From Patescibacteria group bacterium (GTDB lineage: Bacteria; Patescibacteriota; Minisyncoccia; Phycocordibacterales; UBA12088): a DNA stretch of 64,000 nucleotides. This document shows positions 26,175-46,961 of this stretch, piece by piece. A program made the position numbers and the translations under genes. The stretch is taken from contig WFWH01000002.1 in NCBI GenBank assembly GCA_015491245.1, positions 3,823-67,822 on the forward strand, read 5' to 3'. The notes under the pieces were generated by a model. That model was given only the letters and a program-made list of their open reading frames with translations. It made no database searches and was not told the DNA's origin. How positions within the stretch are numbered: position 1 is the stretch's first letter; each line of letters starts with the position of its first letter.

Positions 26175-26441
26175 AGGTGCACTGCACTGTACCAAAAGGA
26201 ATAGGGTACGTCAAATGATGCCGAGCCCGCAAAGCGGTAACGATCCCCCCTGTGCCATAAATAAAAATGAAAAAGAGCCGGGTCCGAAGACCCGGCCAAG
26301 TAGATCAGGGAGGATAAACGCTTGGGGCGAGGGTGGGCTTGCGTGCCCGCCCCGCCACCACGGTCGGGCGGATAATATACATCCGCCCGACCGTATGCTT
26401 ACATCGTAGGGAATATCCTTTTATATGTCAAGGGCTCTTGG

Positions 26442-26447
26442 TATACT
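26442..26447 (+). promoter_or_regulatory. -10 TATACTG, 8 nt before the rnr start codon (near-leaderless)
   Basis: tatgtcaagggctcttggTATACTGccgcagtATG. Two perfect hairpins lie upstream (GCCGGGTC-cgaa-GACCCGGC at about 26278-26297 and GTCGGGCGGAT-aatatac-ATCCGCCCGAC at about 26367-26395). Confidence 0.35.
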
Positions 26448-26455
26448 GCCGCAGT

Positions 26456-28522
26456 ATGCGCCATGCGCGAAAAAAGCAAAAAGAAAGGGAGGCGGCGCGC
26501 ACAAAGCCTCGCCACCGCACCGCGCGCCCGCGCACTCAGCGCAGCGGGGGTGCCAAAAAAGGGCGCGCGCGCCTTATCGGCCGCGTAAAGGTAACCTTGC
26601 GCGGGCGCGGATTTCTCATTGTGGACGAGGCGCGGGACGCCGATAGCATTGAAATTCCCCGCGAGTGCCTCAACACCGCTCTGCCGGGTGATACGGTAGA
26701 AGCCATGCTGTTGCCCCACAAGCGCAACGAGCCGCGCCGTGCCGAGGTGGTACGGATTCTGGAACGCGCCAAAACCCGCTTTGTGGGCACGTTCGTCCGC
26801 CACGGCGATCGCTGGTACGTGGACCCCGACGACCCGCGCGTCTATGCCGATATCCTTATTGAAACTCCCGACCAAAAGCGCGCGCGCGAGGGGTACAAAG
26901 CGCTGGTTGCCCTCACCGTGTGGGACGACCCAAAGAAGGCACCGCTGGGGCGCGTAGTGGAGGTAATCGGCAAAGAGGGTGAGCACGAAACCGAAATGCG
27001 CGCCGTGGCGCTCGCGCAAGGTTTTGACTACACGTTTCCTCCCGAGGTGGCGCGCGCGGCTGATGCCCTGCGCGCGGCGCGGGCGCGCATTTTCCGCGCC
27101 GCGCGCGCCACGCACCGCGACCTGCGCGCCCTCCCCACTTTTACCATTGACCCCGAAGACGCCAAGGATTTTGATGACGCGCTTTCCGTGCGCCCCCTTG
27201 AGGGCGGCGCCATAGAGGTGGGGGTACACATTGCCGATGTCTCCACTTATGTGAAAAAGGATGACGCCATAGACAAAGAGGCGCAGGAGCGCGCCACTTC
27301 CGTCTACCTCGTGGATCGCACCATACCTATGCTCCCCGAGGTGCTCTCCAATGATTTGTGCTCCTTAAACCCCGGCGAGGAAAAATTGGCGTTTTCCGTA
27401 CTCTTCACCTTTACCCCCGACCACACCCTCTCGGACACGTGGTTCGGGAAGAGCATTATCACCTCCGACAAGCGCTTCAGCTACGAAGAGGCGCAGCAAG
27501 TGCTGGACCGCGGCAAAGGCCCCTTTTTTCAAGAGCTCACCATCGCGCGCGACATAGCCCGCACCCTGCGCGCGGCGCGCTTTCGCGCGGGGGCCATTTC
27601 TTTTGAGACTGAGGAGATAAAATTCAAGCTAGACGCCGACATGAAGCCGGTGGACGTCCTGCGCAAAGCGCGCCAGGAAACCAATCTCCTCATTGAGGAC
27701 TGGATGCTACTCGCCAATCGTGCGGTGGCAGAGCGCATCAGTGCGGAGTGCAAACAGCGGCACCCCGAGCCCTGCGTCTGCGTGTACCGCGTGCACCCTG
27801 AACCCGATCCCGAGAAAATCATGGAACTCGCGCACTTTGTGGAGGCGCTCGGCTTTCACCTGCCCCATGATAAGGGCGTGGTGCGCGGCGAGGATCTCAA
27901 TGCCCTCTTTCGCCAGGTGGAGGGGACCGACGCGCAGGATCTGGTGGAGACGGCAGCCATACGCTCCATGGCAAAAGCGTTCTATTCCCTGAAAAATATC
28001 GGGCATTTTGGTCTCGCATTTTCCCACTACCTGCACTTTACCTCGCCCATACGCCGGTACCCCGACCTGATGGTGCACCGCATTTTAACGCGTGTCCTCG
28101 CAGGCAAGGGCACTCCTTCACGCGAGTATCGCTGGCATGAGCGGCTTGCCCAACACGCCACGGAAAAGGAGGTGGCGGCAATGGAAGCTGAGCGCGACAG
28201 CGTGCGCTACAAGCAAATTGAATACCTGCGCGGCAAGGTGGGACAGGTATTTGAGGGGAAAATTTCCGGCATTACCGACTGGGGCATATTTGTGGAAGAG
28301 CTGCACTCTAAAGCAGAAGGGCTCGTGCGCCTGCGCGACCTCACCGACGATTACTACTATATTGATAAAAAGGGCCTGCGCCTCGTGGGGCAGCGAACAC
28401 GCAAGACACTCTCCCTCTGCGATCGCGTACGGGTAAAGCTCACCGCCGTGGATATGGAGCACAAAACGCTGGAGTGGAAACTGTTAACCGTACTGCCGCA
28501 CGCAACGCCGCCCACGCGGTAA
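26456..28522 (+). CDS. rnr: ribonuclease R (RNB family 3'-5' exoribonuclease) with basic N-terminal tail
   Basis: N-terminus MRHARKKQKEREAARTKPRHRTARPRTQRSGGAKKGRAR, then a cold-shock/OB region. RNB motifs FTIDPEDAKDFDDALS and DRTIPMLPEVLSNDLCSLNPGE, plus a C-terminal S1 domain. Confidence 0.85.
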   Translation: MRHARKKQKEREAARTKPRHRTARPRTQRSGGAKKGRARLIGRVKVTLRGRGFLIVDEARDADSIEIPRECLNTALPGDTVEAMLLPHKRNEPRRAEVVRILERAKTRFVGTFVRHGDRWYVDPDDPRVYADILIETPDQKRAREGYKALVALTVWDDPKKAPLGRVVEVIGKEGEHETEMRAVALAQGFDYTFPPEVARAADALRAARARIFRAARATHRDLRALPTFTIDPEDAKDFDDALSVRPLEGGAIEVGVHIADVSTYVKKDDAIDKEAQERATSVYLVDRTIPMLPEVLSNDLCSLNPGEEKLAFSVLFTFTPDHTLSDTWFGKSIITSDKRFSYEEAQQVLDRGKGPFFQELTIARDIARTLRAARFRAGAISFETEEIKFKLDADMKPVDVLRKARQETNLLIEDWMLLANRAVAERISAECKQRHPEPCVCVYRVHPEPDPEKIMELAHFVEALGFHLPHDKGVVRGEDLNALFRQVEGTDAQDLVETAAIRSMAKAFYSLKNIGHFGLAFSHYLHFTSPIRRYPDLMVHRILTRVLAGKGTPSREYRWHERLAQHATEKEVAAMEAERDSVRYKQIEYLRGKVGQVFEGKISGITDWGIFVEELHSKAEGLVRLRDLTDDYYYIDKKGLRLVGQRTRKTLSLCDRVRVKLTAVDMEHKTLEWKLLTVLPHATPPTR

Positions 28523-28555
28523 GCCCCCACATCAGAAGGAGTTGTTTTCCCTTTT

Positions 28556-28600
28556 CCCTCCTTTTCCGCTATAGTGAGAGGAGGTACACCAAAAGGAGGG
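28556..28600 (+). promoter_or_regulatory. SD-sequestering hairpin: CCCTCCTTTT (28556-28565) pairs with AAAAGGAGGG (28591-28600, the ribosome-binding site)
   Basis: Perfect 10-bp complement with a 25-nt loop, ending 8 nt before the ATG at 28609. fourU / RNA-thermometer-like architecture. Confidence 0.4.
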
Positions 28601-28608
28601 CCATCTCA

Positions 28609-28866
28609 ATGGCATATCACGCCAAGGATGCCGCTGCCGTGCGTCCGCCGCAGCGCGCGCGCACGGTCCGCTACGTGAACCGGAAGAAAAAGAGGGAGGA
28701 GTTCAATGCCCGCGAGTACGCGTGGGTCCGCCAGGGGCGCCGGTGGAAAGGCGTCCACAAGAAAACGGGCGAGGCGGCGTACTTCGTCCTCGTGGTACGC
28801 AACCGACGCGACTTCTGGCTGCAGGTTTCTAAGCAAGAGTTTTCTCGCTTCGGCATTCTCTACTGA
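28609..28866 (+). CDS. small basic hypothetical protein (85 aa)
   Basis: MAYHAKDAAAVRPPQRARTVRYVNRKKKREEFNAREYAWVRQGRRWKGVHKK... It has a strong SD (AAAGGAGGG, 8-nt spacer), which is rare in this window, and a TGA stop. Confidence 0.5.
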   Translation: MAYHAKDAAAVRPPQRARTVRYVNRKKKREEFNAREYAWVRQGRRWKGVHKKTGEAAYFVLVVRNRRDFWLQVSKQEFSRFGILY

Positions 28867-28888
28867 TAATACACCAGTTCCTCACTAG

Positions 28889-28923
28889 TGCCCGCCGCTT
28901 CGCATCCACGACGGCGGGCACCC
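28889..28923. terminator. hairpin GTGCCCGCCG-N15-CGGCGGGCAC between convergent genes (no T-run)
   Basis: 10-bp stem, 23 nt after the stop of the small basic gene. Confidence 0.3.
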
Positions 28924-28988
28924 CTTATGGGGCCCATGCAGCTAATGCGGAAAAGCGCGCGTGCGCGCCGCAGAATAAAAACGCCGCG

Positions 28989-29738
28989 CTACTCCACCTC
29001 CACGCGCTCAATAATAACCTCCTCCACGGGGCGGTCCGCTGCATCGGTGGCGGTGTTCGCAATAGCGTCCACCACATCCATGCCCGCCACCACACGCCCG
29101 AATACGGGATGCTTGCTGGTGAGGGGCGGCTTGTTGAAATCAAGCCCCGTGTTGTCGCCCACGTTGATGAAAAATTGGCTCCCGCCCGAGTCAGGGCGGC
29201 CCGTATTGGCCATCGCGATCGTGCCGCGCACGTTAGAGAGCCCCTCGCCCTCCACGAATTCGTCTTTAATGGTGTAGCCCGGACCGCCCGTTCCCCAGCG
29301 CGCCTTCTCGCGCACATCTTTGGTCAAGGGATCGCCCGCCTGAATCATAAAGCCGCGGATGACGCGGTGAAAGCGCACGCCGTCATAGAACCCCTTGCGC
29401 GCAAGCTCCACAAAGTTACCCACGGTAAGCGGCATGCGCGCGGCGTCGAGCGCGAGCGTAATCACTCCCCTGTTGGTAATGAGCCGCGCGGTAATTTCTT
29501 GTTTTCCTTCCATAAATGATTTGGTAGCATCGGATAAATCATCAAAAGTACGTACGGCACTTTTAGCACGGGCGCTGGGGCGCGCCTCTCCCGCGCGATC
29601 GCGCGCATCCGCCGCTGCATTGGGTGCAACGTCACTGACTGGATTTTCATTGCCCAACCATACCGGCGCGCGCGAGAGCGCAAAGAGTGCCACAAGAAGC
29701 ACGATAACAATGATACTGATACGTGTGAGCTGCTGCAT
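28989..29738 (-). CDS. membrane-anchored peptidyl-prolyl cis-trans isomerase (cyclophilin type)
   Basis: TM helix ISIIVIVLLVALFAL, then the cyclophilin motifs GFYDGVRFHRVIRGFMIQAGDP and GTIAMANTGRPDSGGSQFFIN. Confidence 0.8.
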   Translation of the reverse strand: MQQLTRISIIVIVLLVALFALSRAPVWLGNENPVSDVAPNAAADARDRAGEARPSARAKSAVRTFDDLSDATKSFMEGKQEITARLITNRGVITLALDAARMPLTVGNFVELARKGFYDGVRFHRVIRGFMIQAGDPLTKDVREKARWGTGGPGYTIKDEFVEGEGLSNVRGTIAMANTGRPDSGGSQFFINVGDNTGLDFNKPPLTSKHPVFGRVVAGMDVVDAIANTATDAADRPVEEVIIERVEVE

Positions 29739-29836
29739 GGCGGCTATTGTAGCAAAAGCCCCAAAAGAATAAAACTGCGGCGGGCGGGGCGCGCGTCGCA
29801 GCTAATCCACATTTTTCTTATGTTAGTTTTTAAAAA

Positions 29837-29981
29837 TTTAAAATCCAACCAAACCGCCCTCCGCAAGGAGGGCAAGCACCGCAGCGACCCACAATATGGT
29901 GCGCCGCACGAGCGTCGGAATATCAAGCTCCGACGTTCGTTTGTCTTCTTCCCTTATTAGGGAAGAAAATAGATCATCCAT
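29837..29981 (-). CDS. small hypothetical membrane protein (48 aa), not in ORF track
   Basis: MDDLFSSLIREEDKRTSELDIPTLVRRTILWVAAVLALLAEGGLVGF. SD GGAGG with a 5-nt spacer before the ATG. Its own promoter TTGCAT-16-TATAAC lies at 30032-30059 (minus strand). Confidence 0.4.
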
Positions 29982-30085
29982 TTTTCCTCCCCTTCTTTCA
30001 GCACCCCTCCCGCAGGGGCGCCTCTGTCCCCGTTATACTCCTCTCGCACCAAGATGCAAGCAAAACTGTGCACAGGCCCCATACG

Positions 30086-30110
30086 CAAAAAACGCGCACC
30101 GGTGCGGTTT
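30086..30110 (-). terminator. intrinsic terminator after the SMC-like gene: CGCACCGGTGCG stem followed by TTTTTT on the minus strand
   Basis: Plus strand aaaaaacgCGCACCGGTGCGgtttc. Confidence 0.45.
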
Positions 30111-30183
30111 CTTCGGCGCAAGGGCCGCGGGGTCTGCGGCACCAAAAGTGCAGGAGGCAGCGCATCGCTGCCGCGCACTCACG

Positions 30184-32454
30184 CTATTTGGCAAATTGTG
30201 CCCCTTCTTCAAACTTTACGGAGAGCACGCGCGACACCCCGTCAGCGGCCATGGTAATACCGTAGAGCACGCCGGCGCGGCTCATGGTTTCGCGGTTATG
30301 GGTAATGACGATAAGCTGGGACTCCTTCGCGAGCTCCTCCAGCATATCGCCATAGCGGCGCGAGTTCGCCTCGTCCAGCGCCGCATCCGTTTCATCCAAA
30401 ATTAAGAACGGAGGCGGGTTCACGCGGCTCATGGCAAAAATAAGCGCTATGGAGGTGAGTGCGCGCTCGCCGCCCGAGAGCATCATAAGCCCCTTTACGC
30501 GCTTGCGCGGCAACGACACGGCAACTTCCACCCCCACCTCAGCAAGCTCACTTTCTTCCTCATCTTCTCCCGGCATGGCTTCCTCTTCCTCCACTCCCGT
30601 ACGCGGCGTGCGCCTTTTTTCCCGTACCACCTTGAGGGACGCTTTGCCGCCGCCGAACATAAGCGTAAAGAACGTATGGAACGCCTCTGATATTTTCTCA
30701 ATGCCCTGCAGGAATTTTTCCTCCAATTCTCTGTCCAAATCTTCTATCAAGGAGCGCAGCGAAGCGGCGGACGCTTCCAGATCCTTTAATTCCCTTTCCA
30801 AAAACGCGTCGCGTTCTTTAACCTCCTCATACTCCCGCATAATCTCGTCGGCATTGGCGCCGCCCAGCTCCTCCAGCCGTATCTTCATGCGCTCCAGCTC
30901 TTTGCGGCGCTTCTCCTGCGCCGTACGCTCTTCGGCAAGCAGCTCTTCCAGAGGCACTGCTTCCCCCGCGGCGTCTTCCAGGGACACCTCGCGGTACCGA
31001 GCAGCGCCCCGCCCCAAAAGCGCCACCGCCTCGGCAAGTTCGCGCTTGAACGCTTCGCGGTCGCGCGCCAGCTGTGCGGCGCGCGCTTCCAGCGAAGAGA
31101 GCGTCAGCTGTACCTCGTTATGCTCCTGCATGAGTGCGAAGAGCTCACGCTCCTGTGTGCGCCCCTCTTCATGCGCGCGTACCATTGCCTCCTGAGCCGC
31201 GCGAGAACGCGCTTCTAGCTGCGCGGCGCGCGCTTTTACCTTCTCGAGCGCCCGCTCCGCCTTTGCGTATTCGTGCTCAAGGCGCCGCAAAGGTTTGTGG
31301 TCGGGTGCTGCGGGGCGCGCCGCGCGGTGCGTGCGGAGAAATTTTTCCAACAGGCCGCGAATATGCGCGGCGATGCGTCGCGCCCGGGAGATGTCTTCTT
31401 CCTGCTCCAGCGCCGCGAGCGACTCGTCCGCCTCGCGCACCAGCGTCTCCACTGCCCCCATCGGCACCGTGGCGTGCGCGGCATCTTGTGCGCGGCGCGC
31501 CTCGTCGGCAATGCGGCGCTTTTCAAACGCAATCTGCCCCTCCAGCGATCCCAGGGTGCGGTTCAAGCGCTCGCGCTCCTCGCGCACTTCACGAAGTTCT
31601 TTTTCCAGCGCGAGCACTTCGGCGCGCGCAGCGTCATCTTCCTCTTGCTTTTCCAACGCGGCACGCAAATGGGCAATGCGGCGGGAGAGCTCCCGTGCGC
31701 GGCGCTCCGGTTCTTCGCGCGCGGCGGCAATCGCCTCCGCCTCCGCCTCTAAATAACGCTCCTCACGCTTGAGGTACTCTGCGTACCGTACCTCCAGTTC
31801 CTCACGCAGGGACAACGCCTTCTTCAGTTTCGCCACTTGGCGCTCCAGAAAGGAAAGGTGCGGCTTATTTTCGCGCCGGAGCGCCTCCACCTGCTGTTTG
31901 TTTTCCTCCGTTTTTGCGAGTTTCTTTTCACTCTCCCGTATCTTGTAGTGAAAAATGCGCAGCCCCAGCGCATCCTCTATCATGGCGCGGCGCTCGCGCG
32001 GCGAGGCCGCCAGCACCCTATCGGCCTCTCCTTGGGAAATAATATGGTGCCCCGACGCGCCGATGTGGGCGCGCGCGAGCAATTCGGTAACGTCCTTGAG
32101 CCGCACGCGCGACCCGTTAATGAAATACTCATTCGTGCCGTCACGATACACGGCGCGCTCCAAAACCACTGCATCAAAATCCAGCGCTAAGGTGCGGTCG
32201 CGGTTGTCAAATTCCACCCGCACCGCCGCGCGGTTTAGGCGGCCGTTTTCTCCGGTATAGATAAGGTCTTCCCCCTTTTTGCCGCGCAGGGATTTGATGG
32301 ATTGCTCCCCCAGTACAAAGCGGAACGCTTCGGCAACGTTGCTCTTGCCGGACCCGTTAGGGCCCACGATGGCGGTAATGGGCGCGGAAAAGTCAAAGTC
32401 GCTTTTTTTAGCAAAAGACTTAAACCCACTGAGCTCAAGGCGTGTGAGGCGCAT
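30184..32454 (-). CDS. smc: SMC-family ATPase, short form (about 757 aa) with no recognisable hinge domain
   Basis: Start MRLTRLELSGFKSFA. Walker A GPNGSGKSN. C-terminal signature LSGGERALTSIALIFAMSRV...FLILDETDAALD. About 500 aa of heptad-rich coiled coil lie between them. It occupies the conserved rnc-smc position. Confidence 0.7.
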   Translation of the reverse strand: MRLTRLELSGFKSFAKKSDFDFSAPITAIVGPNGSGKSNVAEAFRFVLGEQSIKSLRGKKGEDLIYTGENGRLNRAAVRVEFDNRDRTLALDFDAVVLERAVYRDGTNEYFINGSRVRLKDVTELLARAHIGASGHHIISQGEADRVLAASPRERRAMIEDALGLRIFHYKIRESEKKLAKTEENKQQVEALRRENKPHLSFLERQVAKLKKALSLREELEVRYAEYLKREERYLEAEAEAIAAAREEPERRARELSRRIAHLRAALEKQEEDDAARAEVLALEKELREVREERERLNRTLGSLEGQIAFEKRRIADEARRAQDAAHATVPMGAVETLVREADESLAALEQEEDISRARRIAAHIRGLLEKFLRTHRAARPAAPDHKPLRRLEHEYAKAERALEKVKARAAQLEARSRAAQEAMVRAHEEGRTQERELFALMQEHNEVQLTLSSLEARAAQLARDREAFKRELAEAVALLGRGAARYREVSLEDAAGEAVPLEELLAEERTAQEKRRKELERMKIRLEELGGANADEIMREYEEVKERDAFLERELKDLEASAASLRSLIEDLDRELEEKFLQGIEKISEAFHTFFTLMFGGGKASLKVVREKRRTPRTGVEEEEAMPGEDEEESELAEVGVEVAVSLPRKRVKGLMMLSGGERALTSIALIFAMSRVNPPPFLILDETDAALDEANSRRYGDMLEELAKESQLIVITHNRETMSRAGVLYGITMAADGVSRVLSVKFEEGAQFAK

Positions 32455-32534
32455 AACACCCACCAGTATACGCGCAATGCCTGCCGCGGAGAAGCGCTGG
32501 CGTGTGCAGTGTGGCGCCAGCGCGTCACACTGCA

Positions 32535-33230
32535 CTACCACCCCTTCTTCGCCAGTGCGTTAAGTGCAGCGTTCTGCTCCGCCTCCTGCTTTGACTTGCC
32601 GCGCCCCTCGGCAACCTTTTCATTTCCCGTATACACGCCCACGGTGAAGAGCTTGTCGTGGTCGGGGCCCTCTTCGTGCAGGATGCGGTACGTAGGCGTT
32701 ACCGAAAGCCGCTCCTGCGCCGCCTCTTGGAAGCGGCTCTTGGGGTCCTGCCACAGGCGGCGGCGCACGATCTCGTCAGTGAGAGGAAAAATGTGCTGCG
32801 CGATAAAATCACGCGCGGCGGCATACCCTTGATCCAGGTACAGCGCACCGATGATTGCCTCAAACGCATTAGCGAGAATGTACTGCCGTGCGCGCCCCGT
32901 GTCTTTCGCTTCACCGCGCGAGAGGCGCAGGTACTCATTCACGCCCAAGCGCCGCGCGGTGTCGGCGAGGGTATGGGTATTTACGAGCGCCGCACGGTAC
33001 GCGGTCAATTCCCCCTCAGGCTTGTCGGGGAAGGTGTGGAAGAGGTAATCGGTCACCACGAGCTCCAATACGGCGTCTCCCAAAAACTCAAGCCGTTCAT
33101 TGTGCGCTAATGTGCTGCCACGGTGTTCATTAAGGTACGAGCGATGCACCAGCGCCTGCTCCAAGAGGCGCAGATCATTGCAGCGGAGTGCCAATTGCTC
33201 CGCCAGTTCGGCAATAGGTTTCGGCTCCAT
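32535..33230 (-). CDS. rnc: ribonuclease III
   Basis: RNase III signature HRSYLNEHRGSTLAHNERLEFLGDAVLELVVTDYLF, plus a C-terminal dsRBD. Confidence 0.9.
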   Translation of the reverse strand: MEPKPIAELAEQLALRCNDLRLLEQALVHRSYLNEHRGSTLAHNERLEFLGDAVLELVVTDYLFHTFPDKPEGELTAYRAALVNTHTLADTARRLGVNEYLRLSRGEAKDTGRARQYILANAFEAIIGALYLDQGYAAARDFIAQHIFPLTDEIVRRRLWQDPKSRFQEAAQERLSVTPTYRILHEEGPDHDKLFTVGVYTGNEKVAEGRGKSKQEAEQNAALNALAKKGW

Positions 33231-33380
33231 GGGGATAGTGTGGCCCCGCCATTCGAGATAAAACGCACCAACCTCTCTCTCGGGAGGCGAAGTTTGAGCG
33301 CTTTATCTTGAATGTGCAAAAGGGCGCGTAATGCGAATAAAAGCTGCCACCACCACCACTGGGTGGCGCGCGGCATCAGG

Positions 33381-34325
33381 TCATTTGCGTGTAGGCGCGC
33401 GCGTAACCAATATATTGATCGCCTTGGTCACTATGGGGAGAATATCGTGGTAGAAATTTAAGTCAAGGATATCAGTGATTTTGAACCAGCGCGCATCATC
33501 CAATCCTCCTTTCTCCTCCAAGGTGAGGTCCACAAAATCCGCTTCCGCGAGGTAGTACGTCACGTGCTTGCGAATCTTGCCTTTCTCCGGATTCGCGGCG
33601 ACGTACTCATTTTCGCCCAAAATTTCCTGCGGGCGCACTGTAACGCCGATTTCATCGCGGATTTCCCTTATCACCCCCTTTTCAATGCTCTCCCCCTCTT
33701 TGATGCCCCCTTTGGGCAGGGTCCAGTGCCCGAACACATCATGCACGAGTGCAATGTATATCTCATCACCGTCCCGGGCATACACCACTGCGCCCCCCTT
33801 GTGCTCTACCGGCATCTTTTCATAAGGCACGGCTTGTTTGGGTTTTGCGGGGGCGCGGCGCGCCTTATTTCTTTTTCCGGTCTCGTGTTTTCCCGGCTCC
33901 CCCAACTCTTTGTACACGGCACCCAACACACCGTTAACGAAGCGCCCGCTCGTTTCGCCGCCGAAATTTTTCGCAAGCTCTATCGCTTCGTTAATGGCGA
34001 CTTTGGCCGGTACCTCTTTGCGGTCGGCAAACAAGAGCTCGTAGAGGCCGATGCGGAGAATGTTGCGGTCTATACGCGCAATCTTGTGAATCGGCCACTC
34101 GGGCGCGGCTTTTTCAATGACGAGATCTAGCTCTTTCTGCTTTTCCAACACCCCGCGCAAGAGGCGCTCCATGAAAGGGATATCCTTGGAGCCGGGGGCG
34201 AATTCCTCTATGTTGCGTCGCAACATTTCCACGGCGGGAACGTCCTTCTTCCCCTCTTCTAGCAGCGCATCGCGCTCAAAGAGGGTTTGAAGAACAATGG
34301 AACGTGAAAGGTGCCGGTTCGCCAT
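33381..34325 (-). CDS. nusB: NusB (transcription antitermination) fused to C-terminal NUDIX hydrolase domain
   Basis: The N-terminal 140 aa match NusB ([33 protein letters not shown]). A basic linker follows. The C-terminal 150 aa contain the Nudix box [23 protein letters not shown]. Confidence 0.7.
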   Translation of the reverse strand: [314 protein letters not shown]

Positions 34326-34347
34326 GACCTACCTGCGGTTCCCTGCC

Positions 34348-34353
34348 AGTATA
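34348..34353 (-). promoter_or_regulatory. -10 TATACTG for the nusB-nudix gene (22 nt before its ATG)
   Basis: Minus strand gtgccaaggtggccttttttagGTATACTGgcagggaaccgcaggtaggtcATG. Confidence 0.35.
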
Positions 34354-34514
34354 CCTAAAAAAGGCCACCTTGGCACTCGAGGCACCAGGGGATGTGGAAA
34401 GCGCATTCCGCGCAAAAGCCATGCAATACATTTCCGCTGCACATAGCTATGTAAAAGGGCGCAGCGAACCCACGGGCATGCGCGGCGACCCGCGCATTGG
34501 AGCTGTGGAGCGCG

Positions 34515-34763
34515 TTAGGAGGACGGCTTTTCTTCTCCCGCAGCTTCCGTTTCTGCGCTTTCCTTCGCCTTGGAGGAAGGCGCGGAAGTTGCCGCTTCGG
34601 GTATTACGGCATTCCCCCGGTACGTGCCGGTTGCGGGATCCATAAAGTGCCGCAGGTGCGGATGGCCCGTCTTTTTATCAAACGCCACCGCAGGTTTCTT
34701 TACCCGGTGGTGCGCGCGGCGGCTGTGCGTTTTGGCGCGCGTCATGCGCATGCGTACCGACAT
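34515..34763 (-). CDS. rpmF: 50S ribosomal protein L32 with C-terminal extension
   Basis: MSVRMRMTRAKTHSRRAHHRVKKPAVAFDKKTGHPHLRHFMDPATGTYRGNAVI matches the L32 pattern (RRSH...D..TGE.HL.HH....G.YRG). Confidence 0.65.
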   Translation of the reverse strand: MSVRMRMTRAKTHSRRAHHRVKKPAVAFDKKTGHPHLRHFMDPATGTYRGNAVIPEAATSAPSSKAKESAETEAAGEEKPSS

Positions 34764-34772
34764 AGTGAGCGC

Positions 34773-34801
34773 ACTATACGGGAAAATCGCCAAAAAGGCA
34801 A
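34773..34801 (-). promoter_or_regulatory. promoter TTGCCT-17-TATAGT for rpmF; the -10 ends 9 nt before the ATG (leaderless or near-leaderless mRNA)
   Basis: Minus strand cTTGCCTttttggcgattttcccgTATAGTgcgctcactATG. Confidence 0.5.
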
Positions 34802-34860
34802 GCGTGATTCGTGTGTGCGGCGAATATTCCAGAGCGCACGGCTTCACCTCCCACGTGGCA

Positions 34861-35472
34861 TTAACTGTGCCGTAAAAAGCTTCTCCGGTGCGCGGGCGTA
34901 GGACCATAGCGGCGCAGAGCGGCGTAGTGCGCGCGCGTGCCGTACCCCTTGTGCGCCGCAAACCCGTAGGCGGGATAGCGGCGGGCCAAGCGCCGCAGGC
35001 GCGCATCACGTGTTTCTTTAGCGGCCACGGACGCGAGCGCAATGGGATAGGCGCGCGCATCTCCCCCCACCAACGTGCATTGGTGCGGATACGCGCGCGG
35101 CGCGGCAAGCCCGCCGTCCAAGAGCACCAGGCACTCTTCGGGCGGAAGCGCAAGGCGCGCGAGCGCGCGCGCGAGCGCCTCACGGATGGCTGCCGCAATC
35201 CCTATCGCATCAATGCGCGCGGGACCCGCCAGGGAAACCGCCCAGTGCATTGCACCTTGCGCCGCAGATGCCTTGAGCTCAGCAAAAACTGCCGCGCGGC
35301 GCGCGGGTGTGAGGCGCTTGCTGTCACGGAACGCAGAGGGGAGCGGCGCGTCGCGCGGCAGCGCCACCGCTCCCACCGCAACGGGTCCTGCCAGTGGCCC
35401 GCGCCCTGCCTCATCTACCCCCACCACATAGCGCACCTGCGTGGGTAGGGGTACTCCTGCGATCGCCCGCAT
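34861..35472 (-). CDS. rnhB: ribonuclease HII
   Basis: VVGVDEAGRGPLAGPVAVGAVAL...DSKRLTPARR...LLDG. Confidence 0.85.
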   Translation of the reverse strand: MRAIAGVPLPTQVRYVVGVDEAGRGPLAGPVAVGAVALPRDAPLPSAFRDSKRLTPARRAAVFAELKASAAQGAMHWAVSLAGPARIDAIGIAAAIREALARALARLALPPEECLVLLDGGLAAPRAYPHQCTLVGGDARAYPIALASVAAKETRDARLRRLARRYPAYGFAAHKGYGTRAHYAALRRYGPTPAHRRSFLRHS

Positions 35473-45731: not shown

Positions 45732-46961
45732 ATGATGCACGCCACACACTCTCGCCAGAACACCCCGGAGCCTCAGGAAACCCAGAATGATGCCGCCGCT
45801 GACGCCGCGGGCGCTTCGGCAGAGGCGCACACCTCTCACCCGGCGGTAAAGTTGTTTGCCCTCATTGGCCTTACCGCGATTCTCTTTGCAGGTGCGTGGT
45901 TCTCCGTTAAACTGGTTCAGTGGCTCCCGGGTATCAGCTCCGCCGCTTCTACCTTTACCCTGCGCGAGGTGTTGCCCTTCCCTTTTGGGAACGGAGAAGG
46001 GGCGCGAAAAGGGGCACTGCGCCTCACACTCCCTTCACTGAGTGTAGCGCATGGGGCACCCTTCACTCTCTCCTGGGAATACCCCGGCACGCCGGAAGGC
46101 GCTCCACTATACGCACTCTCCTACACTTGCGCAGAAGGGGTCTCGCTCAGCGTGGTAGATGGGCTCACGATACGCGACCTTCCGTGCGGCACTCCCTACC
46201 GATTCTCCAGTGAGAGCAGAAAAATGCTCCTGGTGCCGCGCTCTTTGAAAAACCGCTTTATTGACGTAACCCTCTCCCTGGTGCTGTTGCGTGCCGATGG
46301 TACGCCGCGCGAGGATACCCGCGCCACGCAAATCATTACCATCGTAAACGAGCGCATCAGTGACAGTCCCTCACTGCGCTCCCCGAAAAAGGGGCAGCGC
46401 GCGCCCGGCCAAGGCAGCACAGGAGACACGAATGCGCCGGAAGCGGTGTCGCGCACCGAGGATGCGGTGCGGGCCGCACCGCAAACCCGCGCGCCGCAAA
46501 AGCCGGTAACGGTATTCGTACCCAATCCCAAGACACGCGAAAATCCCAGTGGCGCGCCTGATCTGGCGGTAGAGGCGCTCACCGTGGGCGCTTCGGTGAC
46601 GGTAAACGGAAAAGACATTTTTGTGCCGCGCACCACCATTGCCGGCTCTGCGACGCCCACTATTTCCTTCCGGGTATCCAATCAAGGCGATAAGCGCAGC
46701 GGCAGCGCATGGCGCTTCCGCTTAACCATCCCCCTGAAGGGTGGGCAAACCTTCACCTACACCTCACCCGCGCAGGAAGTGCTGAAACCCGGAGACTATA
46801 TAGAGTACACCGTTGGTTTGGAGGAACTGGAAGCGGGATCCTATACCGCTACCGTAACCCTCCTCAAGGTTGCGGGCGACAAAAAAGATGCCAACAACCG
46901 CGCCGAGGTATCGTGGAAAGTGGTGTCCTCCGCGCAGGGTAAAGATAAAAACAACTCTTAG
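45732..46961 (+). CDS. membrane-anchored hypothetical protein with C-terminal CARDB-like (cell-adhesion-related) domain
   Basis: TM helix VKLFALIGLTAILFAGAWFSV. CARDB pattern PDLAVEALTVGASVTVNGKDIFVP...ISFRVSNQGDKRSGSAWRFRLTI...LKPGDYIEYTVGLEELEAGSYTATVT. Confidence 0.5.
   Translation: MMHATHSRQNTPEPQETQNDAAADAAGASAEAHTSHPAVKLFALIGLTAILFAGAWFSVKLVQWLPGISSAASTFTLREVLPFPFGNGEGARKGALRLTLPSLSVAHGAPFTLSWEYPGTPEGAPLYALSYTCAEGVSLSVVDGLTIRDLPCGTPYRFSSESRKMLLVPRSLKNRFIDVTLSLVLLRADGTPREDTRATQIITIVNERISDSPSLRSPKKGQRAPGQGSTGDTNAPEAVSRTEDAVRAAPQTRAPQKPVTVFVPNPKTRENPSGAPDLAVEALTVGASVTVNGKDIFVPRTTIAGSATPTISFRVSNQGDKRSGSAWRFRLTIPLKGGQTFTYTSPAQEVLKPGDYIEYTVGLEELEAGSYTATVTLLKVAGDKKDANNRAEVSWKVVSSAQGKDKNNS

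What the first reader, a model, noticed from the sequence alone, without database searches (positions are those of the whole stretch)
33381..34325. NusB fused in-frame to a NUDIX hydrolase
The first 140 aa are an unambiguous NusB ([33 protein letters not shown] closely matches E. coli [33 protein letters not shown]). After a Lys/Arg-rich linker, the C-terminal 150 aa carry a complete Nudix box ([23 protein letters not shown]). NusB normally acts with NusE on nascent rRNA and mRNA. Nudix enzymes of the RppH type remove 5' pyrophosphate from transcripts. A physical fusion would place an RNA 5'-end-modifying or nucleotide-hydrolysing activity on the transcription antitermination complex. This has not been widely described. 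The gene sits at the conserved position upstream of rnc-smc.
Basis: partly seen in the sequence, partly recalled or inferred. Interest (0 to 1): 0.55.

Follow-up and report, generated by a model that had tools for sequence, protein, structure and literature searches.

The report
NusB fused to a Nudix domain
This is a real and widespread gene of the tiny "candidate phyla radiation" bacteria in which the rRNA-transcription factor NusB carries, on a flexible tether, a Nudix module whose closest studied relative strips protecting groups from RNA 5' ends; most fused copies have lost catalytic residues, so the module may now bind rather than cut.

Summary
Window 33381-34325 (-) is one uninterrupted 314-aa ORF: NusB (residues 1-140, above the NusB equivalog cutoff), a disordered linker (141-176) and a Nudix domain (177-308).

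The fusion is not an artefact. All 120 best database hits carry both domains. About 55 clusters at 50% identity and about 33 GTDB species (Kaiser-, Zambryski-, Niyogi-, Ryan-, Nomurabacteria, Paceibacterota) have it.

In Saccharibacteria the same two genes are separate but overlapping, inside a nusB-nudix-rnc operon. The fusion therefore joined operon neighbours.

The Nudix half is not an E. coli-type RppH. Its closest relatives are ApnA hydrolases, above all Aquifex aq_158, shown in 2026 to be a broad RNA 5'-end pyrophosphatase.

The catalytic REx2EE motif is intact in 118/120 standalone copies, but in only 17/120 close fused relatives and 22/98 across the fused family. The phosphate-binding Lys and base-stacking Tyr residues stay about 90-95% conserved. 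The window's copy reads RE..DE.

Most likely this is a NusB orthologue with a tethered module that recognises 5'-polyphosphate or cap structures, catalytic in some lineages and binding-only in many. No paper in the searchable library describes it. It is a new variant of known kinds, of moderate to high interest.

The parts
33381..34325 (-). Complete nusB-nudix fusion ORF (314 aa plus stop)
   Evidence: 100% and 99% identical proteins in NCBI assemblies
33906..34325 (-). NusB domain, residues 1-140. It includes F129 (= Aquifex NusB F122, which stacks on BoxA U8), D86 (= E81) and F16 (= E. coli Y18 at the NusE interface)
   Evidence: Pfam and TIGR01951 above cutoff; Foldseek 1tzv TM 0.83, 33% identity; residue mapping from the alignment and PMC3177189; F129 100% and D86 94% conserved in 55 fusion representatives
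33798..33905 (-). Inter-domain linker, residues 141-176 ([36 protein letters not shown]), predicted disordered, net charge +5 to +6 depending on exact boundaries
   Evidence: AF2 pLDDT below 50 for residues 146-160, pTM 0.52; family linker 12-46 aa, median charge 0, 24% mean identity; net charge
33402..33797 (-). Nudix-fold domain, residues 177-308, of the aq_158/Ndx1/NUDT2 (ApnA hydrolase) type
   Evidence: Pfam NUDIX; Foldseek 3i7u TM 0.84-0.89, rmsd 2.0-2.6 A; profile against PDB, 3i7u E 3.5e-20
33642..33710 (-). Nudix box, residues 206-228: G206-x5-E212-x7-R220-E221-I-R-D224-E225-I-G227-V228. The third Glu is Asp. E225 corresponds to aq_158 E51, whose E51A mutant is inactive
   Evidence: read directly from the sequence; alignment; PMC13145063
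34348..34376 (-). Weak sigma70-like promoter match (GTGCCA-17-TATACT) 23 nt upstream of the start codon. It suggests the gene may have its own promoter
   Evidence: 3 matches in the region against 1.4 expected; weak evidence only
32535..33230 (-). rnc (RNase III), the conserved downstream partner of nusB(-nudix) across Patescibacteria
   Evidence: Pfam; synteny
34515..34745 (-). rpmF (ribosomal protein L32), upstream neighbour (context)
   Evidence: Pfam Ribosomal_L32p, E 2.2e-12
34861..35472 (-). rnhB (RNase HII), conserved upstream neighbour (context)
   Evidence: Pfam; synteny
30184..32541 (-). Short SMC, conserved downstream neighbour (context)
   Evidence: Pfam SMC_N; synteny

Best explanation
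The ORF is this Patescibacteria (Paceibacteria/Parcubacteria-type) organism's NusB orthologue. It has absorbed the gene that lay immediately downstream in an ancestral nusB-nudix-rnc operon.

Shown: (1) the N-terminal half has the NusB fold, passes the equivalog threshold, keeps the BoxA-U8 pocket residues and sits at the locus where NusB-only relatives have their nusB; (2) the C-terminal half is an independently folding Nudix domain of the aq_158/Ndx1/NUDT2 type, joined by a disordered linker of about 35 residues with no fixed inter-domain packing; (3) in Saccharibacteria the two are separate, overlapping genes followed directly by rnc.

Inferred: the NusB half binds S10 and the BoxA element of nascent rRNA-leader transcripts as usual. 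The tether keeps the Nudix module within roughly 100 A of that site, where it can engage the 5'-terminal nucleoside polyphosphate or cap of the same transcript. The closest characterised relative, aq_158, removes exactly such groups (ppp, pp, Np4, NAD, FAD). In standalone and canonical-box copies the module probably hydrolyses the group to a 5'-monophosphate, which would prime leader or rRNA processing together with RNase III and 5'-dependent nucleases.

In most fused lineages the metal-binding glutamates have decayed, while the phosphate-binding Lys and the two base-stacking aromatic residues are kept. The function conserved across the fusion is therefore probably recognition or retention of that 5' nucleotide (or of a free ApnA-type ligand) rather than turnover. 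The window's own copy (E212, R220, E221, D224, E225) may still be weakly or fully active.
For: Architecture.

Spread: 120/120 best hits carry both domains; about 55 full-length fusion clusters at 50% identity, reaching down to about 30% identity; about 33 GTDB species loci.

Operon origin: L046, L074, L077 and L079 have nusB and nudix abutting or overlapping. The genomes CP006915.1, CP039999.1 and DAOMYD010000001.1 show nusB, then nudix overlapping it by 23-29 nt, then rnc.

Synteny: rnhB-(rpmF)-nusB[-nudix]-rnc-smc is conserved in fused, split and NusB-only loci.

Subfamily: aq_158 is the best PDB hit for the fused Nudix profile (3.5e-20), for the AF2 model and for the standalone TM7 protein (3.2e-13). 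Canonical fused copies, split copies and aq_158 are mutually 30-41% identical.

aq_158 activity: an RNA 5' pyrophosphatase and decapping enzyme; E51A is inactive (PMC13145063). E51 corresponds to E225, the best-kept Glu here.

Decay of catalysis: REx2EE is intact in 118/120 standalone copies against 17/120 close fused copies, and in 22/98 across the fused tree, with losses interleaved among clades. The box (33% mean pairwise identity) is less conserved than the domain as a whole (37%).

Retention of binding residues: K205, Y241, Y292, W201, Y257 and W280 are each kept in 59-63 of the 66 degenerate-box sequences. K205, Y241 and Y292 correspond to human NUDT2 K42, Y82 and F128, which bind the P1 phosphate and stack the adenine (PMC4734340; alignment).

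NusB competence: F129 = AaNusB F122, D86 = E81, F16 = EcY18.
Against: There are no biochemical data for any member. The window holds no rRNA operon, so I could not check whether a BoxA exists or how far it lies from the transcript's 5' end. The Nudix domain is acidic (net -5 to -8), so it is not a general RNA-binding surface. Only a 5'-terminal nucleotide with Mg2+ would fit, and free dinucleoside polyphosphates fit equally well. Nudix substrate specificity cannot be predicted reliably from sequence (stated in PMC13145063). A flexible tether with no interface (pTM 0.52) is also what a functionally neutral fusion of operon neighbours would look like. The fused and standalone Nudix domains are only about 27% identical, so their orthology rests mainly on genomic position and shared subfamily. 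I could not show that the fusion is the only nusB in its genome.
Confidence: 0.45

Rival explanations
1. A fully active RppH-like RNA pyrophosphohydrolase riding on the antitermination complex. The Nudix half catalytically converts 5'-triphosphate, or removes caps, on nascent BoxA-containing transcripts in all carriers of the fusion.
For: aq_158, the closest characterised relative, has exactly this chemistry. The window's copy keeps four acidic box positions (E, E, D, E) and R220. The operon link with rnc is conserved.
Against: The motif is intact in only 17/120 close relatives and 22/98 of the fused family. The second Glu is replaced by K, V, I or A in 66/98. The box is less conserved than the rest of the domain. 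RppH equivalog cutoffs are not met.
Confidence: 0.2
2. A housekeeping dinucleoside-polyphosphate (Ap4A-Ap6A) hydrolase that became fused to NusB only because the two genes overlapped in an operon. There is no functional coupling; each half works independently.
For: All nearest solved relatives were first described as ApnA hydrolases. The overlapping nusB and nudix ORFs in Saccharibacteria need only a one-base frame change to fuse. The linker is flexible with no inter-domain interface. The base-stacking and phosphate-binding residues typical of Ap4A hydrolases are kept.
Against: A housekeeping hydrolase should keep its catalytic glutamates, yet they decay specifically in the fused form (118/120 against 17/120) while the domain is still retained under constraint. 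The nusB-nudix adjacency is conserved across very deep divergence (NusB halves about 50% identical, Nudix halves about 27%).
Confidence: 0.15
3. A ligand sensor. The Nudix half binds a nucleotide signal (Ap4A, (p)ppGpp, NAD derivatives) without hydrolysing it and modulates NusB-dependent rRNA transcription, in the way non-catalytic Nudix domains act in NrtR regulators or CFIm25.
For: Catalytic residues are lost while the nucleotide-pocket residues are retained. There are precedents: CFIm25 lacks two box glutamates and binds but does not hydrolyse Ap4A inside an RNA-processing complex (PMC2425470), and the NrtR Nudix domain ranks 4th in Foldseek.
Against: There is no predicted contact between the domains through which binding could be transmitted (pTM 0.52, disordered linker). 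Canonical-box members coexist in the same family.
Confidence: 0.12
4. A protein-protein adaptor. The decayed Nudix fold recruits a partner (RNase III, RNA polymerase, S10 or a ribosome-assembly factor) to the NusB-BoxA complex.
For: The link to rnc is conserved. Non-enzymatic, protein-binding Nudix domains are known (PMC5389931). Some members (P0262, P0263) replace the whole box helix with a Lys/Glu-rich insert of about 100 aa yet keep the rest of the fold.
Against: The best-conserved residues map to the nucleotide pocket, not to a new surface. There is no direct evidence for any partner.
Confidence: 0.07
5. An artefact: a frameshift or misassembly joins two separate genes.
For: In Saccharibacteria the genes are separate and overlap out of frame.
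Against: There is a continuous ORF with a conserved linker motif (GEPGK...MPVE). 120/120 best hits from NCBI, JGI, ENA and Logan assemblies, and about 33 GTDB species, carry the single ORF.
Confidence: 0.01

Closest known systems
Standalone NusB (E. coli, Thermotoga maritima 1TZT, Aquifex 3R2C)
   Same: Residues 1-140 share the fold (TM 0.83 to 1tzv), pass the TIGR01951 equivalog cutoff, keep the BoxA-U8 stacking Phe and the Glu/Asp partner, and keep the aromatic residue at the NusE interface.
   Different: It carries about 175 extra C-terminal residues (linker plus Nudix domain). The locus context is rnhB-rpmF-nusB-rnc-smc rather than ribH-nusB (E. coli; from my own knowledge).
Aquifex aeolicus aq_158, 'Ap4A hydrolase' renamed Omnivore RNA pyrophosphatase (PDB 3I7U/3I7V; PMC13145063)
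   Same: It is the best sequence-profile hit (E 3.5e-20) and the best structural hit (TM 0.84-0.89, rmsd 2.0-2.6 A, 28% identity) for the Nudix half. They share W-x3-K-G, a Tyr 13 residues after the box, a C-terminal aromatic residue, and the essential Glu (E51 = E225).
   Different: aq_158 is a free 134-aa enzyme with a canonical REVWEE box. Here the domain is tethered to NusB, the third Glu is Asp, and most fused relatives have lost one or more box glutamates.
Thermus Ndx1 (Ap6A hydrolase), Chlamydia CT771, human and C. elegans NUDT2 (Ap4A hydrolase), mycobacterial MutT1 N-domain
   Same: They belong to the same Nudix subfamily by profile and fold. The phosphate-binding Lys and the adenine-stacking Tyr and Phe/Tyr are conserved. 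NUDT2 also dephosphorylates ppp-RNA (PMC9283932).
   Different: None of them is fused to a transcription factor, and all keep canonical boxes.
E. coli RppH (NudH) and B. subtilis RppH (YtkD)
   Same: Both have the Nudix fold. The proposed type of substrate (an RNA 5' polyphosphate or cap) is the same.
   Different: This is not a member of either family. RppH equivalog HMMs score 36-38 bits against cutoffs of 116-259. E. coli-type RppH is absent from the top Foldseek and profile hits. YtkD is matched weakly by only 4/30 members.
CFIm25 / NUDT21 (eukaryotic cleavage factor Im 25-kDa subunit)
   Same: It is a Nudix fold working inside an RNA-processing complex, with box glutamates replaced by hydrophobic residues (RLx2EI). 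It binds but does not hydrolyse Ap4A or ATP (PMC2425470). It is the best functional analogy for the degenerate-box fusions.
   Different: It is eukaryotic, dimeric, a different Nudix subfamily (PF13869) and recognises UGUA in the RNA body. It has no NusB partner.
RsmB/Sun 16S rRNA m5C967 methyltransferase
   Same: It is the known precedent for a NusB-fold N-terminal domain fused to an RNA-modifying catalytic domain. The NusB half here also hits the RsmB models weakly (62 bits against a cutoff of 319).
   Different: The catalytic partner in RsmB is a SAM methyltransferase, not a Nudix domain, and the RsmB NusB-like domain is a paralogue. Here the NusB half is the NusB orthologue itself (equivalog score and synteny).
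Saccharibacteria (TM7) nusB-nudix-rnc operon (e.g. CP006915.1, CP039999.1, OX335598.1)
   Same: It has the same three genes in the same order. Its Nudix protein belongs to the same aq_158-like subfamily, and its NusB is about 50% identical.
   Different: nusB (about 152 aa) and nudix (about 165 aa) are separate ORFs overlapping by 23-29 nt in different frames. The Nudix box is canonical in 118/120 sequences.

Membership tests
NusB (TIGR01951 / PF01029) | Profile score above the curated equivalog or gathering threshold | tested here: met
   TIGR01951 120.7 bits (cutoff 88.35); PF01029 113.2 bits (cutoff 23.1)
NusB (TIGR01951 / PF01029) | All-helical NusB fold | tested here: met
   The AF2 model has pLDDT above 90 over residues 5-141, all helices. 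Foldseek to T. maritima NusB 1tzv gives TM 0.83, rmsd 2.3 A, 33% identity
NusB (TIGR01951 / PF01029) | BoxA-U8 pocket residues (Aquifex NusB F122 stack, E81 H-bond) and an aromatic residue at the NusE interface (E. coli Y18) | tested here: met
   F129 (100% in 55 fusion representatives), D86 (94%; Asp as in T. maritima) and F16. Mapping comes from the alignment and PMC3177189
NusB (TIGR01951 / PF01029) | Orthologous locus (same position as the nusB of relatives) | tested here: met
   rnhB-(rpmF)-nusB-rnc-smc is shared with 38/43 NusB-only Patescibacteria loci. There is no second NusB in the 64-kb window
NusB (TIGR01951 / PF01029) | Forms a heterodimer with S10 (NusE) and binds BoxA RNA; supports rrn antitermination | not testable with these tools
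   Needs biochemistry. No rRNA leader is present in the window
Nudix superfamily (PF00293) | Profile score above the gathering threshold and the alpha/beta/alpha Nudix fold | tested here: met
   56.7 bits (cutoff 21.1). AF2 pLDDT is above 90, and hundreds of Nudix structures match at E<1e-3
Nudix hydrolases (catalytically competent) | Nudix box GX5EX7REUXEEXGU with all four glutamates | tested here: inconclusive
   The window has G206, E212, R220, E221, D224 (Asp for the third Glu), E225 and G227. Close relatives: REx2EE intact in 17/120, third Glu replaced by Gln in 58 and Asp in 22. Whole fused family: 22/98 canonical, 66/98 degenerate
ApnA-hydrolase / aq_158 ('Omnivore') type Nudix | Closest by sequence profile and by fold | tested here: met
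   3i7u E 3.5e-20, CT771 3.5e-15, Ndx1 1.9e-13, NUDT2 5e-12. Foldseek ranks 1-3, 8, 15 and 31
ApnA-hydrolase / aq_158 ('Omnivore') type Nudix | P1-phosphate Lys in W-x3-K-G, a stacking Tyr 13-17 residues after the box, and a second stacking aromatic residue in the C-terminal helix | tested here: met
   K205, Y241 and Y292 align to NUDT2 K42, Y82 and F128 (residue roles from PMC4734340 and PMC2425470). They are conserved at 89-97% in the fused family
ApnA-hydrolase / aq_158 ('Omnivore') type Nudix | Hydrolysis of ApnA and/or RNA 5' ppp, pp or caps; dependence on the fourth box Glu (aq_158 E51) | not testable with these tools
   E225 (= E51) is present in the window and in 116/120 close relatives. 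Activity needs an assay
RppH, E. coli type (NF001934-NF001938) | Equivalog profile score above the cutoff | tested here: not met
   Best score 35.9-37.7 bits against a cutoff of 118; other RppH models score 22-28 bits against cutoffs of 116-259
RppH, E. coli type (NF001934-NF001938) | Closest structural or sequence neighbour among solved Nudix proteins | tested here: not met
   E. coli RppH scores E 3e-3 by phmmer, matching only residues 200-238. It is absent from the top 50 Foldseek hits and top 60 profile hits
RppH, B. subtilis type (YtkD, TIGR02705) | Profile match | tested here: not met
   Only 4/30 family members match, with best E 8.3e-5, far below equivalog level

The most novel reading that the evidence does not exclude
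The fused Nudix domain is a non-catalytic '5'-end reader'. It holds the triphosphate or cap nucleotide of the nascent rRNA leader while NusB-S10 holds BoxA. That would make it a previously unrecognised component of the rRNA antitermination and processing complex in candidate-phyla-radiation bacteria, which have reduced sets of ribosome-biogenesis factors. It would have evolved from an active 5'-end pyrophosphatase that still exists as a separate operon partner in Saccharibacteria.
Probability: 0.15. Interest if true: 0.8.

Novelty: new variant of a known kind. Interest (0 to 1): 0.6.

Why it matters
NusB has been studied for decades as a small single-domain factor. Here a large branch of bacteria, covering much of the Paceibacteria and, as an operon, the Saccharibacteria, couples it physically or translationally to a Nudix module and to RNase III.

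The closest studied relative of that module deprotects RNA 5' ends. The association therefore suggests that 5'-end chemistry, BoxA-dependent antitermination and RNase III processing are linked during transcription in these organisms.

The contrast between intact catalytic motifs in standalone copies and decayed motifs in fused copies is a natural experiment in an enzyme turning into a binding module. It parallels eukaryotic CFIm25.

The hypothesis is directly testable. The proteins are small and soluble-looking, and some Saccharibacteria that carry the operon are cultivable (from my own knowledge). In practical terms, thousands of database entries annotated only as "NusB" hide a second domain.

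Tried and rejected
The source organism is therefore known only as a Patescibacteria/Paceibacteria-type genome with about 59% GC.
- Literature searches found nothing relevant: NusB+Nudix+fusion, NusB+'candidate phyla radiation', Nudix+Patescibacteria, Nudix+Saccharibacteria. The Nudix-clan survey never mentions NusB.
- Nudix-only and NusB-only cluster representatives that looked like split forms of the close clade (P0145, P0178, P0211, P0225, P0243 and others) are mostly fragments that begin inside NusB or inside the linker. I did not use them as evidence.
- I rejected the idea that the basic linker is a conserved RNA-binding element. Median net charge across the family is 0 and mean identity is 24%.
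- I rejected the idea that the Nudix domain is a general RNA-binding surface, because it is acidic.
- A BoxA-like motif search found 7 near-matches against 1.6 expected. None lies near nusB, the exact match lies inside an ORF, and I did not check the positions of the others; there is no rRNA in the window. It is uninformative for the mechanism.
- The first regex for the Nudix box matched W77 in NusB and gave nonsense (second block). I corrected it.
- The search for Ndx1 mutagenesis data, to learn which box glutamates are essential in this subfamily, found no accessible paper. The effect of the third-Glu substitution therefore remains open.
Full report
**1. The observation**

Window 33381-34325 on the minus strand is a single ATG-to-stop ORF of 314 codons with no interruption. 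Pfam places NusB at residues 7-139 (E 1.5e-32) and NUDIX at 179-292 (E 3.4e-15). The NCBIfam NusB equivalog model TIGR01951 scores 120.7 bits against a cutoff of 88.35.

The quoted Nudix box is residues 206-228. It matches GX5EX7REUXEEXGU at every fixed position except the third glutamate, which is Asp224 (read directly from the sequence).

An AlphaFold2 model built on 85 homologues gives pLDDT above 90 for both domains and below 50 for residues 146-160. Its pTM is only 0.52. The protein is therefore two well-folded beads on a disordered string, with no predicted packing between them.

**2. The fusion is real and widespread**

- All 120 best hits in the 5.8-billion-protein collection carry both Pfam domains. 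They come from NCBI, JGI, ENA and Logan assemblies. Where named, they are called 'NusB' from Patescibacteria, Parcubacteria or Pacebacteria.
- An exhaustive search of 1.84 billion cluster representatives (50% identity) found 142 proteins at E<=1e-30. Fifty-nine of the 150 listed are at least 270 aa long, and the 55 that aligned across both domains are full-length fusions, with identity down to about 30%.
- A scan of GTDB species genomes found at least 594 NusB relatives. Among the best 80, about 33 are single-ORF fusions (Kaiser-, Zambryski-, Niyogi-, Ryan-, Nomurabacteria, 'Paceibacterota', Parcubacteria C7867-004). Four have nusB and the Nudix gene as separate adjacent ORFs. Forty-three have nusB only, with no Nudix gene of this family within 6 kb.

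**3. Origin of the fusion**

In the split loci the Nudix gene either starts 5 nt after the nusB stop codon (L046) or overlaps the end of nusB in another frame (L074, L077, L079).

The standalone Nudix protein of about 165 aa is ubiquitous in Saccharibacteria, with 7762 hits at E<=1e-10. In the genomes CP006915.1 (RAAC3_TM7_1), CP039999.1 (oral taxon 488) and DAOMYD010000001.1 the order is nusB, then nudix overlapping it by 23-29 nt, then rnc. In the first two of these genomes rnc abuts or overlaps the nudix stop codon; in the third it starts 146 nt downstream.

The wider order rnhB-(rpmF)-nusB[-nudix]-rnc-smc is conserved in fused, split and NusB-only loci. rnc lies directly downstream in 33/33, 4/4 and 38/43 loci respectively. 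The window shows the same order.

The fusion therefore joined two translationally coupled operon neighbours. The Nudix module always sits between nusB and RNase III.

In a rough NusB-domain neighbour-joining tree, most fusions form one clade. Next to it are NusB-only forms that still carry the 'GEPGK' linker motif. One canonical-box fusion (L040) groups with the split Saccharibacteria forms. More than one fusion event, or secondary losses, are therefore possible.

**4. The NusB half**

This half meets the equivalog threshold and has the NusB fold (TM 0.83 to T. maritima 1tzv). It also keeps the residues that matter in the Aquifex NusB-NusE-BoxA structure:

- The Phe that stacks on BoxA U8 (AaF122) is F129, 100% conserved in the fusions.
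- Its partner AaE81 is D86, 94% conserved.
- The aromatic residue at the NusE interface (E. coli Y18) is F16.

The mapping uses the alignment, the conservation figures come, and the residue roles come from PMC3177189. Together with the synteny, this makes the N-terminal half the organism's NusB orthologue and not a NusB-like paralogue of the RsmB kind.

**5. The Nudix half**

This half is not an E. coli-type or B. subtilis-type RppH. RppH equivalog models reach 36-38 bits against cutoffs of 116-259. E. coli-type RppH is absent from the 50 best Foldseek hits and the 60 best profile hits.

The nearest solved relatives are diadenosine-polyphosphate hydrolases:

| Relative | Profile E-value |
|---|---|
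| Aquifex aq_158 (3i7u) | 3.5e-20 |
| Chlamydia CT771 | 3.5e-15 |
| Thermus Ndx1 | 1.9e-13 |
| Human NUDT2 | 5e-12 |
| Mycobacterial MutT1 | 1.8e-10 |
| Dcp2 | 7.6e-10 |

For aq_158 the Foldseek TM-score is 0.84-0.89 at rmsd 2.0-2.6 A. The Saccharibacteria standalone protein also has aq_158 as its best PDB hit (3.2e-13). Canonical-box fusions, split forms and aq_158 are mutually 30-41% identical, so they form one subfamily. The window's own Nudix half is more diverged.

aq_158 was recently shown to convert RNA 5' triphosphates and diphosphates to monophosphates and to remove m7G, NAD, FAD, Np4 and sugar caps. Its E51A mutant is inactive (PMC13145063). In the alignment E51 corresponds to E225 of the window protein. 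NUDT2 likewise dephosphorylates ppp-RNA, and E. coli RppH removes Np4 caps (PMC9283932).

**6. Decay of the catalytic motif after fusion**

At comparable divergence (the top 120 hits in each case, at least 66-71% identical to the query):

| Form | REx2EE intact |
|---|---|
| Standalone Saccharibacteria Nudix | 118/120 |
| Fused relatives of the window | 17/120 |

In the fused set the third Glu is Gln in 58 and Asp in 22. The second Glu is kept in 106 and the fourth in 116.

Across 98 diverse fusions, 22 are canonical, 10 near-canonical and 66 degenerate. The second ('RE') Glu is most often replaced by Lys, Val, Ile or Ala. These states are interleaved on the tree, which indicates repeated independent loss.

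The Nudix box has lower mean pairwise identity (33%) than the domain as a whole (37%). The NusB half stands at 49% and the linker at 24%. In a hydrolase family the box would be expected to be the best-conserved part.

The domain is nevertheless never discarded within the fused clade, and its other signature residues are kept equally well in degenerate-box and canonical-box members. In the 66 degenerate sequences the counts are W201 62, T202 59, K205 63, D196 60, Y241 59 (plus 4 Phe), Y257 63, W280 62 and Y292 63.

By alignment to human NUDT2, K205, Y241 and Y292 correspond to K42, Y82 and F128. K42 and Y82 bind the P1 phosphate, and Y82 with F128 sandwich the adenine (PMC4734340; the 'Tyr/Phe downstream of the box' rule is in PMC2425470).

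An extreme case is P0262/P0263. There the whole box helix is replaced by a Lys/Glu-rich insert of about 100 residues, while the flanking strands and the C-terminal helix remain.

This pattern matches known non-catalytic Nudix domains. CFIm25/NUDT21 (box RLx2EI) binds but does not hydrolyse Ap4A within an RNA 3'-processing complex (PMC2425470). Other non-enzymatic Nudix domains are listed in PMC5389931.

**7. Most likely mechanism**

Shown: the protein is the NusB orthologue with a flexibly tethered aq_158-type Nudix module. The pairing of the two genes, and their link to rnc, is ancient and conserved.

Inferred:

- NusB binds S10 and BoxA on nascent leader RNA.
- A disordered tether of about 35 residues can span roughly 100 A (my estimate at about 3 A per residue). 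That lets the Nudix pocket engage the 5'-terminal nucleoside polyphosphate or cap of the same transcript.
- Canonical and standalone forms hydrolyse it, producing a 5' monophosphate that would license 5'-end-dependent nucleases alongside RNase III.
- In most fused lineages the module has become a binder.

The window's copy (E, R, E, D, E) is at the conservative end and may retain activity. I put about 0.95 on the architectural and evolutionary statements and about 0.35-0.45 on the mechanistic part.

**8. Rivals and caveats**

- A neutral fusion of a housekeeping ApnA hydrolase would explain the flexible tether. It would not explain why catalysis decays only after fusion while the domain stays constrained.
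- A ligand-sensor or protein-adaptor role is compatible with the decay, but I have no evidence for coupling between the domains or for a partner.
- The domain is acidic (net -5 to -8), which argues against binding to the RNA body.
- Nudix specificity cannot be read reliably from sequence (PMC13145063).
- The window has no rRNA operon.
- I could not check for a second nusB in fusion-bearing genomes.

**9. Novelty**

No paper in the searchable library mentions the fusion or the operon. The Nudix-clan survey of 2017 does not mention NusB. The proteins are in public databases, annotated simply as NusB.

Both domains belong to well-known families, and NusB-fold fusions to RNA enzymes have a precedent in RsmB. 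I therefore class this as a new variant of known kinds, of moderate to high interest. The reasons are its breadth, the conserved link to RNase III, the recent demonstration that the closest relative acts on RNA 5' ends, and the clear signature of an enzyme turning into a binding module.

Noticed in passing
L032 5983-6930 (CAZWMQ010000003.1, GC 28.5%): The NusB-Nudix ORF of this GTDB species representative has three in-frame TGA codons, each at a family-invariant Trp column (W77, W201, W280). Across the ORFs of the locus, TGA aligns with Trp in homologues in 127 of 148 aligned cases. This suggests UGA=Trp recoding in a Patescibacteria lineage, unlike the UGA=Gly known from Gracilibacteria and Absconditabacteria (the latter from my own knowledge).
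   Followed up: partly
L081 5-2908 (Ca. Saccharibacteria RAAC3_TM7_1, CP006915.1): The leucyl-tRNA synthetase gene just upstream of the nusB-nudix-rnc operon (967 aa) carries a precomputed Pfam NUDIX hit inserted between its tRNA-synt_1 segments. The LeuRS genes of L083 and L085 (864 and 816 aa) lack it.
   Followed up: no
window 30184-32541 (-): The SMC homologue is only about 755-785 aa, with SMC_N head halves at both ends. That is much shorter than typical bacterial SMC (about 1200 aa, from my own knowledge) and implies a short coiled coil.
   Followed up: no
window 46240-46251 (+) and six other sites: The BoxA-like pattern GYTCTTTRAMAA (up to 1 mismatch) occurs 7 times against 1.6 expected; 0 of 100 shuffles reach 7. 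The exact match GCTCTTTGAAAA lies inside ORF 45732-46961. None is near nusB, and the excess may be a codon-usage effect.
   Followed up: no
P0262, P0263 (cluster representatives, 345 and 338 aa): These are NusB fused to a Nudix-fold remnant in which the Nudix-box helix is replaced by a Lys/Glu-rich insert of about 100 residues. They are the extreme end of the decay of the catalytic motif.
   Followed up: partly
L034-L038, L041-L043 (NusB-only Patescibacteria loci): These nusB genes end with the same 'GEPGK(D/E)' motif that starts the linker in the fusions, followed by a low-complexity tail of 12-39 aa. Either the motif predates the fusion or these lineages lost the Nudix domain secondarily.
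   Followed up: partly
window 26333-35472: Genes for RNA and nucleic-acid processing are clustered: RNase R (26333-28522, +), RNase III (32535-33230, -), NusB-Nudix, and RNase HII (34861-35472, -), all within about 9 kb.
   Followed up: no
L029 5968-6953 (Ca. Nomurabacteria CALRHH010000008.1): The fusion gene appears frameshifted, but the break coincides with a run of ambiguous bases (X in the translation), so it is an assembly gap and not a pseudogene.
   Followed up: yes
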